A stretch of 63,366 nt of DNA, counting the filler, from Rhabdomonas costata (lineage: Eukaryota), in NCBI GenBank assembly GCA_019059605.1. It is 51 parts of 51 records of this genome, joined end to end, with 100 filler letters (N's around TTAATTAATTAA, not from the genome) between each part and the next. Parts side by side here need not be neighbours in the genome. Positions count along the whole stretch, not along the records: positions 58,491 to 59,634 come from JAHMHO010026451.1; positions 59,735 to 60,878 come from JAHMHO010026452.1; positions 60,979 to 62,122 come from JAHMHO010026453.1; 48 more parts are not named here. One strand, written 5' to 3'. A program made the translations under genes and the position numbers. This document shows, piece by piece, positions 9,670-61,239 of the stretch. Each line of letters opens with the position of its first letter. Position 1 is the stretch's first letter. The notes beneath the pieces were generated by a model that ran no database searches, was not told the origin of the DNA, and worked only from the letters and a program-made list of their open reading frames with translations.

Positions 9670-9807
9670 ATGGCTGACGCGGAGATGGCTGCAGGCGGTT
9701 CAGGAGGCAATGCGGAAGAGGACGAGGAGGAGCTTCTGGTGCTGTTGGAGATCCCTTCGTTGGAGGGCCTGCCATGTTCGCTGAACGCCACTCCAGTCCG
9801 GGTGCTG
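9670..9807 (+). CDS. First exon of a TFIIIC subunit 6-like protein
   Basis: MADAEM...EEDEEELLVLLEIPSL...PVRVL|gtatgg resembles the acidic run, LVLVEL, then KVLG pattern of the TFIIIC_sub6 domain. Confidence 0.55.
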
Positions 9808-11692
9808 GTATGGAACGTTCCAATGCAAGTGCGCAAGCTCCCTCTGGTAGCTTCTTATAACTGACCCACCACCNNNNNNNNNNNNNNNNNNNNNNNNNNN
9901 NNNNNNNNNNNNNNNNNTTAATTAATTAANNNNNNNNNNNNNNNNNNNNNNNNNNNNNNNNNNNNNNNNNNNNTTGCCTGCTGCTTGACTGCGCCTTTGA
10001 CCCCCGCCCGCAAATTAAAGATGCGAAAAGATTTCCCAATTACGCGCAAAGACAACATACTTTCGTTAAAAATTATCCTCAAATTAACACGTACACAAAT
10101 AACTGCAGCATTTTTAGCACGCTCGGCAGGCAAAATTATTGGTTTGGATCAGCGATCATCAATTTTTGATCCAAATTTTGTTCCGATTCATAATTAATAC
10201 GAATTAAGACAAACGTAAGAAAACAACAGGGCAAGCCCGCACAAACGTTCCAATAGTTCATTAATTTCTTCAGAAAACGAAAACAACTATATGCGCTGCG
10301 CGGCATCACCAGAAACTTTTTACTAGATGGGGCACCGTGTACAGTTCTAAATTGAAAATTGTAATTATTTGTTGGGAAGGGGAAACAAAAGGGTAGCATA
10401 GCTCTCAAACGAGAGCCGCTAAGTGAAAACAGCCGCCCGTAGGAATGTCGTATGCACAAATTCGACATTCCTACCTCTTAACAGAAACACCAAACTCTTC
10501 AACCTCTTGCAGATTGCATGTGCCAGAAAACGTTAAGGTGATGCTGACGGAAAAACGTTGGTTAATAGTTTGTTCCAGATAAATCTGAGATAATGTTGAG
10601 TCTCTCACAGTCTGACTAAAAGAAGCAAGCACCACGAACTGAACGACGGTGAATGTGTGTGCAGGTCAGAGTTGTTTGATTTTTCTGCTGTTGTCCCTAG
10701 TGCAAGATACAAATAATTTTCTATAAAGTTCAACCGATCAAAAGTGGGAAGAGGGAGATTATTGAACCAGAATCGAAAATCATCATCTACACAACCCAGT
10801 CGTTGGTAATATTATCCTACTTTTACCATTTCCATCTGTAATCATCGGTAAACTTTAAACACACGCCAGTGAAGGGAACCCATAGGATATCCCTGGATCT
10901 GTTATCTGTTCTTTTGGCTGCTTGCGGTAGCTACAGCCTACGGTCTACAATACCAAGAAATTCCGATGCTCAAAGACGCCAAAGACCTGACTTTTTGGTC
11001 TCCTTCTCTTTCGTCTTCGTGTTCTGATGACTAAAAAAGTGCCTAATGGTCCCCAAAACATTTTGTTTTTGCACCGCTTGTCTTCATTTTTCTTTCCCAG
11101 GATGCAATTATGTCAGTGNNNNNNNNNNNNNNNNNNNNNNNNNNNNNNNNNNNNNNNNNNNNTTAATTAATTAANNNNNNNNNNNNNNNNNNNNNNNNNN
11201 NNNNNNNNNNNNNNNNNNTTTCGGGGAAGAACACGCGCGCGGCTTGGACTGTTCGGCTCGTGGCATCGTGGTGTTGCATACACAGAACCGTACCGGCAAA
11301 ATATGGGATGCAAATTCACAAAAATTCACATTTACTTATTTTCTACGACAGACTTTGACCACCATTTTTATAATCTCTCTATCGGTACGGTGGCGGGCAC
11401 TTCTTACTGTTGAGTTCAGGGTACGGCTGTTCCGGATGAAGATAGCCTTTTTTTTGCGCTTCGGCCTTTACTTGTGAAGAAGCAGGAGGAATAAGTGGGC
11501 TTATACGTGACCCTCGGCTCCCTCCCGGCCGAATACTGACTGATGCAAACGTTTCCCTAACGGTGTTAGCGGCAGGTACGGGGCAAAAAAACGCAATCAC
11601 GCCACAAAAAGAAAACAACCCATGCACACCGTTAAGAGTGGTATGAGCGTAATTGGGATGGTGAAAGGTGAAAAGTGGTGGGGTTCGCGTAC

Positions 11693-58400: not shown

Positions 58401-58493
58401 NNNNNNNNNNNNNNNNNNNNNNNNNNNNNNNNNNTTAATTAATTAANNNNNNNNNNNNNNNNNNNNNNNNNNNNNNNNNNNNNNNNNNNNTGT

Positions 58494-59444
58494 TTGTGTT
58501 ATAATTTTATAATAAATTTTTTTACAAATAAAGATATCATAAAATATGATAAAATAATACAAACAAATAAAAATTTTTTTTATTTACCGTATGATCTACA
58601 ATTTTATATAATTGAATATATGGATGATTTATCTTTAGCTAATTTATGTAAAAGCAAAATAAATGCGGATATATTTATGTTATTTTCTGATACTTGGAAA
58701 ACAAAAATTAGTCACAAATTAAATAAAATACAATCTATTAAATATCATGGTATTTTTTATTGTTTATTAGTTGGTAATTATTGTCTTTTTTGGTTTGAAA
58801 TATGTAAAGATAACATGTATGTATTTAATATTTTATACAATTGTAATATATGTAATACATGTCGACATAATTTAAATATGAAAGCTATAAATGAATGTGA
58901 ATTGATTAAAAACAATGTTTATAAATGTCAAATGAAAACATCACAGTATACATATGTTGTATACAAATATAAAAAATATTGGAAATTTAACGATATTAAA
59001 CAATTACAACTTCAAAATAAACAACGTGAAACATTATTCAATGAAATATTAAATAAATTAAAATTACATAAAACGTATATTGCATTGTATAAAACAGATT
59101 TTATACTTCATACAATTGATCTTGTACATATTTATAATTACATTGATAAGTTAATTAAAAAGAAACATATGTATGTCACATATGAAGATTTATTATATGA
59201 TCTAAAACAATGTTATATACCGATATATTCAACACGATACATGACCTATTATATTTTTTATAATTTATTAAATAAGATATCATATACAACATTATTTCTT
59301 AAATTATTATTGATAGAAAAAACATTAACGAATAAGGATATAAATGTAATTCATTCACGTACAAATAGAATTAAATTTAAATATATTAAATATGAAATAT
59401 CGTTGTGTCAAGCATGTATTATTATTAAAAAATTATTAAATTAA
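58494..59444 (+). CDS. Intronless AT-rich ORF with an F-box-like motif, NCLDV-like (5' end uncertain)
   Basis: 316 codons, rich in I/K/Y/N/L; FFYLPYDLQFYIIEYMDDLSLANLC F-box motif; a CNICNTC Cys cluster. Confidence 0.75.
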   Translation: MCYNFIINFFTNKDIIKYDKIIQTNKNFFYLPYDLQFYIIEYMDDLSLANLCKSKINADIFMLFSDTWKTKISHKLNKIQSIKYHGIFYCLLVGNYCLFWFEICKDNMYVFNILYNCNICNTCRHNLNMKAINECELIKNNVYKCQMKTSQYTYVVYKYKKYWKFNDIKQLQLQNKQRETLFNEILNKLKLHKTYIALYKTDFILHTIDLVHIYNYIDKLIKKKHMYVTYEDLLYDLKQCYIPIYSTRYMTYYIFYNLLNKISYTTLFLKLLLIEKTLTNKDINVIHSRTNRIKFKYIKYEISLCQACIIIKKLLN

Positions 59445-59447
59445 TTT

Positions 59448-59486
59448 TTTTGAATAAATATTTTTATTTCATATATTTATTCAAAA
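59448..59486. terminator. Perfect 14-bp hairpin between convergent genes, candidate NCLDV transcript-end signal
   Basis: TTTTGAATAAATAT (59448-59461), 11-nt loop, ATATTTATTCAAAA (59473-59486); overlaps the minus-strand stop codon. Confidence 0.65.
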
Positions 59487-59632
59487 CTTAATAAATATTT
59501 AAATTGTTCAAGATCTGCTAACATTTCATCACGAATTGCTATTAAATCTGTATTTGTTGTTAAACATTTACTTAATTTTTGAAGAAGTTTTATAAATAAT
59601 TCTAAATCATCCACAATATTTTTATTTAAATG
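59477..59632 (-). CDS. C-terminus of a ferritin/Dps-like (DUF5856-type) protein, absent from the ORF track
   Basis: HLNKNIVDDLELFIKLLQKLSKCLTTNTDLIAIRDEMLADLEQFKYLLSFE*; the TDL..IRDE(M/I)L....Q..YLL.F ending is typical of this virus-associated family. Confidence 0.75.
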   Translation of the reverse strand, partial: HLNKNIVDDLELFIKLLQKLSKCLTTNTDLIAIRDEMLADLEQFKYLLSFE

Positions 59633-61239
59633 AANNNNNNNNNNNNNNNNNNNNNNNNNNNNNNNNNNNNNNNNNNNNTTAATTAATTAANNNNNNNNNN
59701 NNNNNNNNNNNNNNNNNNNNNNNNNNNNNNNNNNGGGGTGGGGTCAGCATAGTGGAGTGGGTTCTGCAGCGGCCACCCTTCTACAGGCATCGAGGCATGC
59801 AGCGTAACACCCTTCCTTCTCACGTAGACACTCTGTACCCATGCATCGCATCAAGGTGGTGGTTGGTGCGTAAGGGTTGGGTTGGGTTGGGAACATGCAG
59901 CGTATGTGTCATGGTCCTCAGCTTTGGATAGGCACTGTCACCCTGCGGGGCCTTGACGCTCATCAATTACCCTGTAACCCTTACACCCTGTCCTACCATC
60001 AACGGAGGGTGCAGTGCGTAACGTGTCACCTTGATACTCCTCCTGATGCAGGGTACGGTCAGCACTGTGATGGTAGGTGCATGCTAACCCTCCACTCAAC
60101 AGTGCATACGTAAGTTGGTTGTTCTACTCGTATGTCTTACCTTCCAACAACTTAACGCTAAAGGTGTGTAGCCTATGCGTGTAGTGTGGAGTGCATACAA
60201 CAGTAGCCTTAGCCCACTGCGTACGGTCACTTAACACATGGTCGAATCCTTCACCTCGTACCATGCGAGCGCCAGACTATGAGATGCTGACATCCAGTGC
60301 CAAGTAGGACCCAGGGTAGACAGTCAGCTCACCTCCCACGCCATGATCGGGTGCAGCTGTAGGGTTTGAGTGACGTTGCATCACCGGTCACCTTACGCCT
60401 AACCTCATCATGGGGCTGGTGTACGCTATAGCCTAGCATCCATCACTGGGTCTTTCATCTGACGCCCAGATACGCCAGGTATATCACTGTGAATCCACAC
60501 GCATAGGGTCCACGCAACACGTATTTCCCAGGCGAACCTGATGACAACGTAGATCGTGAGCCTCAGCTCAGCTTCACCTTATGCGCCCATAGGTTACTGG
60601 CCTCGTGAGCATTGTCCTTGTTGTATTTGTGTGTGAGTGTAATGTAGATACAATGATCGTTTCGACCGTACGTGATCAAGCATCGGACCGCATCCTTATC
60701 GAGTCATCGTCGTCTCATTCTTCACCTTCACCGTATCCTGCACTTGGAGCTCTTTCTCGTTCGTCATGCACGCTTTTCGCACAAGACCGACCGTCATTCC
60801 TACTAGGACATCCAAAATGACAGCCGCGAAACCGATACCGAAACCCAGACCCCGAATGCCTCAACCCAACCCAAAAACNNNNNNNNNNNNNNNNNNNNNN
60901 NNNNNNNNNNNNNNNNNNNNNNTTAATTAATTAANNNNNNNNNNNNNNNNNNNNNNNNNNNNNNNNNNNNNNNNNNNNTGTGGAATGTAAACGCGAAGAT
61001 CCCGGAGGAGTGGTTGCTCCACGTCAGAGGAAGGGAACAGCCGAAACTTGAGGAGGGGATGCCGGCCTTTCTGGGGAGAACTGGAAGTTGCTCGTAAACC
61101 CCAGCAATATAAGCGCTGGTACAGTTCGGCGAAGAGGCGTGCAAGCAGAGCGAATTGCAGGCCTCAGCCGGAAGAGCTTGAACCTGAGAGCTCAAAACCT
61201 AGGTGCAAAAGCACACATCTCCCAGCACTTTTTGTGTTT

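What the first reader, a model, noticed from the sequence alone, without database searches (positions are those of the whole stretch)
58491..59634. Giant-virus-like contig inside a protist assembly: F-box ORF, ferritin-like ORF and a shared hairpin
Seen: this contig is far more AT-rich than any other, has no introns and is almost fully coding. Two convergent ORFs end 32 bp apart, with a perfect 14-bp stem at the junction. Established: Mimiviridae-type NCLDVs are AT-rich and gene-dense, encode many F-box proteins and end transcripts at AT-rich hairpins. I recognise the minus-strand C-terminus as DUF5856/ferritin-like, a virus-associated family. Inference: this is a fragment of a giant virus infecting, integrated in, or co-amplified with the host. 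If the host is a euglenid, this would be a poorly documented virus-host system.
Basis: partly seen in the sequence, partly recalled or inferred. Interest (0 to 1): 0.85.

Follow-up and report, generated by a model that had tools for sequence, protein, structure and literature searches.

The report
AT-rich virus-like fragment in eukaryote assembly
A 1.1-kb, extremely AT-rich scrap of DNA among unrelated contigs carries the tail of a viral mini-ferritin gene, an orphan gene with a faint F-box-like motif and a shared hairpin between them; it most likely comes from a giant virus, but the piece is too short to prove that or to link it to a host.

Summary
The window is 51 unrelated ~1144-bp contigs. 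Contig 58491-59634 has 17.7% GC, against 40-62% for the other 50. It is 97% coding. Two convergent ORFs end 32 bp apart, with a perfect 14-bp AT-rich hairpin between them. Only 3 of 1000 shuffles reach a stem that long.

The minus-strand 51-residue fragment is the C-terminus of a DUF5856 (mini-Dps, ferritin-like) protein. Pfam misses the fragment, but a profile of verified members scores it 44.9 bits, against at most 11.1 for 5000 shuffles. Relatives lie on giant-virus MAGs and contigs with eukaryote-type genes, but also on T4-like phage contigs. The closest relative is ambiguous.

The plus-strand ORF is an orphan with one unnamed relative among 1.84 billion representatives. Its F-box match is below threshold (E 0.086).

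Similar hairpins at gene 3' ends occur in the low-GC giant-virus-like relatives and not in the phage-like ones.

Best reading (about 0.55): a fragment of an AT-rich, Mimiviridae-style giant virus. Host identity, integration and core genes could not be tested. This is a new member of a known kind, of modest interest.

The parts
58491..59444 (+). Orphan ORF (P0002, 317 codons, stop TAA), open to the left end of the contig and probably cut at its 5' end
   Evidence: Searches give the frame. It is 317 codons, against a maximum of 116 in 1000 shuffles. There is no ATG before residue 44, yet conservation with the only homologue, P0003, starts at residue 1, and P0003 has about 36 more N-terminal residues. 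The one relative, P0003, is 33% identical at E 7.6e-21.
58584..58652 (+). F-box-like segment (residues 32-54: LP.D...I..Y.D...L.NLC..K)
   Evidence: Pfam F-box PF00646 gives E 0.086 and 13.3 bits, below the 20.5 cut-off, over profile positions 4-26 of 43. The motif is conserved in P0003, but P0003 itself has no F-box match at E<=10.
58761..58862 (+). Conserved cysteine cluster (C91, C98, C105, C118, C121, C124; spacing C-x6-C-x6-C-x12-C-x2-C-x2-C), possibly metal-binding
   Evidence: All six cysteines are invariant between P0002 and P0003. There is no significant family match; TNFR_c6 at E 0.72 is noise. Metal binding is inference.
59448..59486 (.). Perfect 14-bp AT-rich hairpin (11-nt loop) shared by the two convergent 3' ends. 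It starts 4 nt after the + stop and overlaps the - stop.
   Evidence: (repeat I18) gives the arms. A stem this long was reached in 3 of 1000 shuffles. The intrinsic-terminator scan did not call it: 0 found, and there is no U-tract on either strand.
59477..59634 (-). C-terminal 51 codons plus stop of a DUF5856 (mini-Dps / ferritin-like) gene. The N-terminal half lies off the contig.
   Evidence: Translation is. Relatives are 20 IMG/VR loci and 46 metagenome loci. Of these, 10 of 10 full-length relatives tested match PF19174 above its cut-off. My own profile gives 44.9 bits and E 4e-12, aligned to the very C-terminus, against at most 11.1 bits for 5000 shuffles.

Best explanation
The contig is a fragment of the genome of an extremely AT-rich large DNA virus of a eukaryote. 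It is most likely a Mimiviridae/Imitervirales-style member of Nucleocytoviricota, or an element that shares that expression system, and was assembled together with the eukaryote's DNA. It carries two convergent genes. One is a small DUF5856 protein, a compact four-helix Dps-like mini-ferritin; iron oxidation or sequestration is inferred for the family and has not been tested. The other is an orphan protein with an F-box-like N-terminal motif and a conserved six-cysteine cluster. Its inferred role is as a substrate adaptor that hijacks the host SKP1-cullin ubiquitin ligase, and this inference is weak. The 14-bp AT-rich palindrome between the genes would act on both strands as the transcript 3'-end signal. 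In that model the hairpin forms in the nascent RNA, a viral RNase III cleaves it, and a viral poly(A) polymerase extends it, as described for Mimiviridae. Shown here: the composition, the ORFs, the hairpin and the DUF5856 kinship. Inferred: the viral lineage, the hairpin's function, the F-box function, and any relation to the 'host'.
For: (1) The contig has 17.7% GC against 40-62% for the 50 neighbouring contigs, and is 97% coding. (2) The - fragment belongs to a DUF5856 subfamily with the C-terminal signature TDL..IRDEMLAD..Q..YL.T/S-F/L-x-stop. Relatives lie on contigs named GVMAG (L001, L003, L008) and on contigs with eukaryote-type genes. These genes are Pkinase+cyclin in L001 and PIF1 in L008; Pkinase, Hint/intein and DUF5767 in L012; DUF5757 and cap guanine-N2 methyltransferase in L007; and IF4E, PCNA, TFIIS and RNase H in L006. 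(3) By blastp among the IMG/VR set, the best-scoring relatives are L001, L004, L003 and L002/L005 at 40-42 bits. The T4-like phage group scores 34 bits, over the last 25 residues only. (4) The DUF5856 gene is followed at once by a perfect AT-rich hairpin in L001 (13 bp, overlapping the stop), L004 and L007/L009 (10 bp each), but not in the phage group. (5) Hairpins of 10 bp or more sit at 15 of 46 ORF 3' ends in the low-GC giant-virus-like loci L001, L004, L007 and L012, against 0 of 46 mid-ORF windows. In phage loci of similar GC (L013, L015) the count is 0 of 34. L024 has 6 of 7. (6) The hairpin has one G-C pair and no U-tract, so it is not an intrinsic terminator. (7) The hairpin rule, its RNase III/poly(A) polymerase mechanism and AT-rich genomes are described for Mimiviridae and Pithovirus (PMC4402537, passages read). 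They are also described for Bodo saltans virus, at 25.3% GC against a host of about 50% (PMC5871332, passages read). (8) The protein atlas puts P0002 nearest to three Nucleocytoviricota-only clusters, one auto-named F-box, at score 0.85, which is a lead only. (9) No true relative of either ORF was found in 185,579 prokaryote species genomes. Neither fragment nor P0002 had a significant match in 50,697 phage records.
Against: No NCLDV hallmark gene is on the contig, and none could be looked for elsewhere. DUF5856 is chiefly a tailed-phage family: an L013-type query hits 206 phage records, and the atlas neighbours of P0001 are mostly Uroviricota. The same IRDEMLAD subfamily occurs on T4-like phage contigs with UvsX, primase, DnaB and RNR. 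The closest relative of the fragment, L021 (51% identity, 22% GC), is ambiguous. It has a ClpP-type protease that matches phage head-maturation PHROGs, plus polyprenyl synthetase and DUF6790, and 0 of 7 of its 3' ends carry a hairpin. L022 has 0 of 6. With 5'-end windows as the control, the hairpin excess at 3' ends is weak in some loci: L007 5/13 against 5/13, L012 4/14 against 3/14. The F-box match is not significant. The P0002 family has no member in any of the 66 DUF5856 loci then held, L001-L066, nor in IMG/VR or metagenome scans. One intergenic hairpin cannot establish a 'rule'.
Confidence: 0.55

Rival explanations
1. The contig is a fragment of a tailed phage (Uroviricota) infecting a very AT-rich bacterium that was present in the culture or sample. 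The DUF5856 gene is then the usual phage mini-Dps, and the hairpin is an atypical terminator.
For: DUF5856 equals PHROG 858 and is widespread in phages. The atlas neighbours of the fragment are mostly Uroviricota. Group L013-L018 with the same C-terminal motif is T4-like. The closest relative, L021, has a ClpP-like protease that matches phage head-maturation PHROGs.
Against: The fragment has no significant hit in 50,697 phage records: the best E is 0.8, and none of the hits lies in a DUF5856 gene. P0002 has no hit there either. No PHROG matches either ORF. No true relative was found in 185,579 prokaryote genomes, which include prophages. The hairpin lacks G-C pairs and a U-tract. The phage-like relatives have 0 of 34 such hairpins and 0 of 64 at 3' ends. 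The F-box-like motif and the atlas neighbours of P0002 point to eukaryotic viruses.
Confidence: 0.2
2. The contig is cellular DNA of an AT-rich contaminant or of an organelle (mitochondrion, plastid, AT-rich eukaryote or endosymbiont) that happens to carry a virus-derived DUF5856 gene.
For: The extreme AT content and the short single contig are typical of low-coverage contaminants. Both ORFs read under the standard code.
Against: All tested relatives of the fragment come from viral or metagenomic contigs, and none comes from prokaryote genomes. There are no tRNA, rRNA or other Rfam hits. P0002 has one relative among 1.84 billion representatives, which is itself a lone 1341-bp contig. Being 97% coding with convergent genes 32 bp apart is unlike AT-rich eukaryotic nuclear DNA.
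Confidence: 0.1
3. The contig is viral in origin but endogenous: a piece of a giant endogenous viral element (GEVE) in the eukaryote's nuclear genome, not a free or co-cultured virus.
For: GEVEs of 25-35% GC in a genome of about 51% GC are reported for Euglena gracilis (PMC12455990, passages read). The neighbouring contigs have about 50% GC.
Against: No host-like flank lies on the contig. At 17.7% GC it is well below the reported GEVE range. Those GEVEs are Asfuvirales, for which I know of no hairpin rule (recalled, not checked). Both ORFs are intact, with no sign of erosion. The host's identity is untested. This is a sub-case of the best explanation, so its probability lies within that 0.55.
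Confidence: 0.1

Closest known systems
Mimiviridae/Imitervirales genomes with the 'hairpin rule', e.g. Acanthamoeba polyphaga mimivirus and Bodo saltans virus (PMC4402537 and PMC5871332, passages read; Byrne et al. 2009 seen only as a reference entry, not held)
   Same: AT-rich and gene-dense, with a palindromic AT-rich hairpin right after the stop codons that is not conserved in sequence. The GC content is far below that of a host at about 50% GC. F-box and other repeat or adaptor proteins are reported in giant viruses (search listing only).
   Different: At 17.7% GC it is lower than the 25.3% given for BsV or the '>70% AT' given for the family. No core gene, early promoter (both 5' ends lie off the contig) or poly(A) evidence is available. 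The ORF family is not found in any IMG/VR giant-virus contig.
Pfam DUF5856 (PF19174) / PHROG 858, the phage T4 RI.-1 (MobD.6) mini-Dps family
   Same: The C-terminal helix and end-of-protein signature align end to end with verified members. The family model is a four-helix bundle (pLDDT 91.5). Its best structural neighbours are mostly Dps/ferritins (TMq up to 0.75, E 0.2-0.9, not significant). The profile hits H. pylori NAP/Dps at E 0.031.
   Different: Only 51 residues are present, and the half that would hold the His/Asp/Glu iron ligands is missing. Pfam's own model does not detect the fragment. The subfamily is only 32-37% identical to cultured-phage members.
Viral F-box proteins (Pfam F-box PF00646)
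   Same: An LP.D...I..Y.D...L.NLC..K motif sits near the N-terminus, at the position and with the spacing of F-box helices 1-2.
   Different: The score is below the curated cut-off. The homologue P0003 has no match. The tryptophan-containing third helix is not evident. The rest of the protein (cysteine cluster and helical tail) matches no known substrate-binding domain, and the model was useless (pLDDT 36).
Giant endogenous viral elements of Euglena gracilis (Asfuvirales; PMC12455990)
   Same: Low-GC viral DNA amid eukaryotic DNA of about 50% GC.
   Different: Those elements have 25-35% GC, are 86-311 kb long, and are eroded and assigned to Asfuvirales. Here there is a 1.1-kb piece at 17.7% GC with intact ORFs and a Mimiviridae-like hairpin. 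Whether this assembly is a euglenid at all was not testable.

Membership tests
Pfam DUF5856 (PF19174) / PHROG 858 | Match to the family HMM at or above the curated cut-off (34.6 bits) | tested here: not met
   P0001 (51 aa, about half of the 94-position model) gives no Pfam hit at E<=10 and no PHROG hit at E<=1.
Pfam DUF5856 (PF19174) / PHROG 858 | Significant homology to proteins that themselves pass the family threshold | tested here: met
   All 10 of 10 tested relatives pass PF19174, and L021's protein also hits phrog_858. A profile of 14 non-redundant relatives scores P0001 at 44.9 bits and E 4e-12, end to end at the C-terminus; the best of 5000 shuffles scores 11.1 bits. Caveat: the relatives were retrieved with peptide words taken from P0001.
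Pfam DUF5856 (PF19174) / PHROG 858 | Dps-type iron ligands (conserved His, His, Asp, Glu in helices A/B; H19, H28, D43, E47 in L001 numbering) | not testable with these tools
   These columns are invariant or nearly so in relatives, but they lie in the part of the gene beyond the contig end.
F-box proteins (PF00646) | Match to the F-box HMM at or above the curated cut-off (20.5 bits) | tested here: not met
   P0002 scores 13.3 bits at E 0.086. P0003 has no F-box match at E<=10.
F-box proteins (PF00646) | Binding to SKP1 | not testable with these tools
   No eukaryotic SKP1 is available to complex prediction, and the single-sequence model of P0002 has pLDDT 36.
Nucleocytoviricota | Hallmark genes (MCP, PolB, A32 ATPase, VLTF3, D5 primase-helicase) on the same molecule or bin | not testable with these tools
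Nucleocytoviricota | Genes whose nearest relatives lie in NCLDV genomes | tested here: inconclusive
   DUF5856 relatives lie on GVMAG-named and eukaryote-gene-bearing contigs, but also on T4-like phage contigs. The closest ones, L021 and L022, are ambiguous. P0002 has no placed relative.
Mimiviridae-type 'hairpin rule' 3'-end signal | AT-rich palindrome able to form a long hairpin immediately downstream of the stop codon | tested here: met
   There is a 14-bp perfect stem 4 nt after the + stop that overlaps the - stop. A stem this long was reached in 3 of 1000 shuffles; folding z-scores are -4.8 and -3.2.
Mimiviridae-type 'hairpin rule' 3'-end signal | Transcripts cleaved and polyadenylated at the hairpin; viral RNase III and poly(A) polymerase present | not testable with these tools
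   No RNA reads and no further genome sequence are available.
Bacterial intrinsic terminator | G+C-rich stem followed by a U-tract | tested here: not met
   No terminator-like site was found on either strand. The stem has 1 G-C pair in 14, and no T-run follows either arm.

The most novel reading that the evidence does not exclude
The contig is the only assembled trace of a live or recently active, extraordinarily AT-rich (about 18% GC) Imitervirales-like giant virus associated with this protist. If the host is a euglenid, this would be a second, Mimiviridae-type virus lineage for euglenids, besides the eroded Asfuvirales GEVEs. It would carry a lineage-specific family of F-box-like, cysteine-rich host-manipulation proteins known so far from only two short contigs.
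Probability: 0.12. Interest if true: 0.6.

Novelty: new member of a known kind. Interest (0 to 1): 0.3.

Why it matters
If the low-GC fraction of this assembly holds more of the same entity, it could give a virus-host lead for a protist group with very few known viruses. Within Discoba, one isolate (Bodo saltans virus) and the Euglena GEVEs are reported, according to PMC12455990. It also shows that the DUF5856 mini-Dps family, known mainly from tailed phages, has a distinct subfamily (C-terminal IRDEMLAD signature) shared by giant-virus-like contigs and uncultured T4-like phages. On its own, a 1.1-kb contig with one orphan gene and half of a known gene is a pointer for re-analysing the assembly. 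It is not a discovery.

Tried and rejected
1. Family and phage searches for P0002 gave nothing significant: Pfam, PHROGs and phage tblastn.
2. Word-indexed homologue searches gave nothing for P0002 or for P0001 with 'longer' lengths. The A1 profile returned only P0003 itself.
3. The exhaustive phmmer gave one hit, P0003, an unnamed singleton on a 1341-bp contig whose context could not be fetched.
4. No relative of P0002 or of the A1 alignment was found in IMG/VR, in metagenomes, in prokaryote genomes, or in 66 of the 67 loci fetched, L001-L066 (tblastn, best E 3.6).
5. Single-sequence AlphaFold of P0002 gave pLDDT 36.1, so no fold search was run on it.
6. PDB sequence searches with P0001 and A1 gave nothing meaningful.
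7. The one prokaryote 'relative' of P0001 (L067) is spurious. It covers query residues 1-41 only, inside a 365-aa ORF that lacks the family's C-terminal signature.
8. The genome search on the viral loci failed because the records are not held. Binning, coverage, read pairs and poly(A) mapping were therefore impossible.
9. Host identity could not be established. None of 10 long ORFs from other contigs matched Pfam, and the window has no Rfam or tRNA hits.
10. A literature search for 'DUF5856' found 0 papers. Byrne et al. 2009 is not held. Supplements were not consulted.
11. The intrinsic-terminator reading was rejected.
12. The organelle or alternative-code reading was judged unlikely: both frames are open under the standard code, and there are no organellar genes or RNAs.
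Full report
What the window is. The 63,366-base window is not one locus. It is 51 contigs of 1139-1157 bp joined by 50 artificial N/TTAATTAATTAA spacers, so it is a slice of a highly fragmented assembly sorted by length. The finding covers exactly one contig, 58491-59634 (1144 bp). Its GC content is 17.7%. The other 50 contigs have 40.4-61.6%. The window has no tRNA and no Rfam family. None of 10 long open frames from other contigs matched Pfam. The nature of the 'host' (protist, euglenid) therefore could not be checked.

The observation. The + frame is open from the first base of the contig to a TAA at 59442-59444, which is 317 codons (P0002). In 1000 shuffles of the contig the longest open frame was 116 codons, so this is a real gene. 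It has no ATG before residue 44, yet conservation with its only homologue begins at residue 1, and the homologue has about 36 more N-terminal residues. The gene is therefore probably cut by the contig end. On the - strand a frame runs from the right end of the contig to a TAA at 59477-59479, giving 51 codons (P0001). The two stops are 32 bp apart. A perfect 14-bp inverted repeat sits at the junction, with arms 59448-59461 and 59473-59486 and an 11-nt loop. It starts 4 nt after the + stop and overlaps the - stop. A stem that long occurred anywhere in the contig in 3 of 1000 dinucleotide shuffles. As RNA it folds at -10.8 kcal/mol on the + strand and -10.0 kcal/mol on the - strand, with z-scores of -4.8 and -3.2.

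The minus-strand fragment. Pfam and PHROGs do not detect the 51-residue fragment. A word-indexed search among longer proteins found nothing. A pattern-plus-tblastn scan of IMG/VR found 20 loci, and the same scan of JGI metagenomes found 46. In all of them the match is the C-terminus of a protein of about 115-150 residues, ending in the signature TDL..IRDEMLAD..Q..YL.T/S-F/L-x-stop, as in the window. All 10 of 10 full-length relatives tested match Pfam DUF5856 (PF19174) above its curated cut-off, and one also matches phrog_858. A profile built from 14 non-redundant relatives scores P0001 at 44.9 bits (E 4e-12), aligned to the very end of both profile and fragment. The best of 5000 shuffles of P0001 scored 11.1 bits. 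One caveat is that the relatives were retrieved with peptide words taken from P0001.

Is the family ferritin-like? A profile including the fragment hits Dps-type proteins in the PDB only marginally: H. pylori NAP 1ji4 at E 0.031, and Listeria and other Dps at 0.56-0.63. An AlphaFold model of the L001 protein with 23 aligned relatives is a confident four-helix bundle (pLDDT 91.5). Its Foldseek neighbours are mostly Dps/ferritins, with TM-scores up to 0.75 but non-significant E-values of 0.2-0.9. The protein atlas independently lists ferritin- and DUF5856-bearing clusters among the fragment's neighbours, at scores of 0.89 and 0.77, which count as leads only. The iron-ligand columns (H19, H28, D43, E47 in L001 numbering) lie off the contig and cannot be checked.

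Who carries this DUF5856 subfamily? Carriers are mixed.
- Giant-virus-like. L001, L003 and L008 are named GVMAG. L001 encodes a kinase-cyclin fusion and L008 a PIF1 helicase. L012 encodes a Ser/Thr kinase, a Hint/intein element and DUF5767. L007 encodes DUF5757 and an RNA-cap guanine-N2 methyltransferase, an activity that PMC4402537 mentions for Mimivirus. L006 encodes IF4E, PCNA, TFIIS and RNase H.
- Phage-like. L013-L018 encode class II RNR, DnaB, a UvsX-like recombinase and primase.
- Ambiguous. L004 has ConA-like lectin domains, HNH and a TnpB-like domain. The two closest relatives of the fragment are also ambiguous. L021 has 51% identity and 22% GC, with a ClpP-type protease that matches phage head-maturation PHROGs, polyprenyl synthetase and DUF6790. 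L022 is the other.
By blastp within the IMG/VR set the fragment scores best with L001, L004, L003 and L002/L005, at 40-42 bits. The phage group scores 34 bits, over the last 25 residues only. Cultured phages carry only distant members. An L013-type query hits 206 phage records at 32-37% identity, some annotated 'MobD.6' or 'starvation-inducible transcriptional regulator', while an L001-type query hits 3. The fragment itself hits none significantly. In 185,579 prokaryote species genomes the only 'relative' was a spurious match inside an unrelated 365-aa ORF. Earlier notes of this scan, which are unchecked leads, describe DUF5856 as the T4 RI.-1/PHROG 858 mini-Dps family, common in phages. My searches agree with that. 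DUF5856 alone therefore says 'virus', not 'giant virus'.

The plus-strand ORF. P0002 is an orphan. Exhaustive phmmer against 1.84 billion representatives gave one hit, P0003 (358 aa, 33% identity, E 7.6e-21). P0003 is an unnamed singleton from a 1341-bp contig. Profile searches found nothing more. None of the 66 DUF5856 loci then held (L001-L066) encodes a relative. The F-box match covers residues 32-54 against profile positions 4-26 of 43, at E 0.086 and 13.3 bits, below the 20.5 cut-off. The motif LP.D...I..Y.D...L.NLC..K is conserved in P0003, but P0003 has no F-box match at E<=10. Six cysteines (C91, C98, C105, C118, C121, C124) are invariant between the two proteins, which suggests a metal site; that is inference. 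The three nearest atlas clusters are all Nucleocytoviricota-only, one of them auto-named F-box, but the score of 0.85 lies in the range that shuffled sequences often reach. The single-sequence model was useless (pLDDT 36). The F-box reading is therefore possible but not shown.

The hairpin. It has one G-C pair in 14 and no U-tract on either strand, and the terminator scan finds nothing. It resembles the palindromic 3'-end signals of Mimiviridae. Those are cleaved by a viral RNase III and polyadenylated by a viral poly(A) polymerase (PMC4402537, passages read). They are also reported for Pithovirus in the same paper and for Bodo saltans virus (PMC5871332, passages read). I tested whether relatives behave alike. 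The DUF5856 gene is followed at once by a perfect AT-rich hairpin in L001 (13 bp, overlapping the stop, as in the window), L004 and L007/L009 (10 bp each). This is not so in the higher-GC loci or the phage group. Across ORFs of at least 150 aa, hairpins of 10 bp or more lie at 15 of 46 3' ends in L001, L004, L007 and L012, against 0 of 46 mid-ORF windows. In phage loci of similar GC the count is 0 of 34. L024 has 6 of 7. Two results weaken this. With 5'-end windows as the control the excess is weak in L007 (5/13 against 5/13) and L012 (4/14 against 3/14); this is partly expected in compact genomes, where one gene's upstream region is another's downstream region. The closest relatives, L021 and L022, have none (0/7, 0/6).

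Synthesis. The most likely reading (about 0.55) is a fragment of an extremely AT-rich giant virus with a Mimiviridae-style expression system. The support is the composition contrast, the coding density, the convergent genes sharing an AT-only hairpin, a DUF5856 subfamily present on giant-virus contigs that show the same hairpin arrangement, the faint F-box and atlas signals, and the absence of both genes from prokaryote genomes and cultured phages. The main rival (about 0.2) is a phage of an AT-rich bacterium, supported by the family's phage bias and by the ambiguous closest relative. A cellular or organellar contaminant is less likely (about 0.1). Whether the DNA is free, co-cultured or integrated cannot be told. 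For Euglena gracilis, integrated giant-virus elements are already published, but they are Asfuvirales at 25-35% GC (PMC12455990, abstract and passages read). A euglenid-giant-virus link as such would therefore not be new, although a Mimiviridae-type one would be.

Verdict. This is a new member of known kinds: a DUF5856 mini-Dps, a hairpin-type 3' signal and an orphan viral ORF. Interest is modest (0.3), because a single 1.1-kb contig can establish neither the lineage nor a host. It is chiefly a pointer to re-examine the low-GC fraction of the assembly.

Noticed in passing
window 1-63366: The window is an artificial concatenation of 51 length-sorted contigs (1139-1157 bp) with N/TTAATTAATTAA spacers. 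Features that span a spacer are meaningless, and ORF lists can run into spacers (for example 58443..59444).
   Followed up: yes
L013-L018 (IMG/VR), DUF5856 at about 9713-10075: Uncultured T4-like phage contigs (UvsX, primase, DnaB, class II RNR, many homing endonucleases; about 30% GC) carry the same IRDEMLAD-type DUF5856 subfamily as giant-virus MAGs. This suggests exchange of the gene between phages and eukaryotic giant viruses.
   Followed up: partly
L021:3498-4526 (+): In the closest relative (22% GC metagenome contig) the DUF5856 domain is the C-terminal third of a 343-aa open frame. This may be an N-terminal fusion, or an internal start at about 4185. A ClpP-type protease gene lies 2.5 kb upstream, and a tandem 'TTTTTACTAT' repeat, not a hairpin, follows the stop.
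   Followed up: partly
P0003 (no locus available): The only homologue of the + ORF is itself a singleton on a 1341-bp contig from an independent public run assembly, with the same N/K/I/Y-rich composition. The same kind of AT-rich entity may lurk at low coverage in another data set.
   Followed up: no
L067:5001-5126 (Clostridium lundense scaffold): This is a false-positive 'relative' of the 51-aa fragment inside an unrelated 365-aa ORF. It shows that the E-values of the pattern-based locus finder, which are relative to candidate stretches only, need checking for short queries.
   Followed up: yes
window contigs other than 58491-59634: None of 10 open frames of at least 200 codons on the ~50% GC contigs matched any Pfam family, and the window has no RNA genes. 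These contigs look like non-coding or repeat-rich eukaryotic DNA, or spurious frames.
   Followed up: partly
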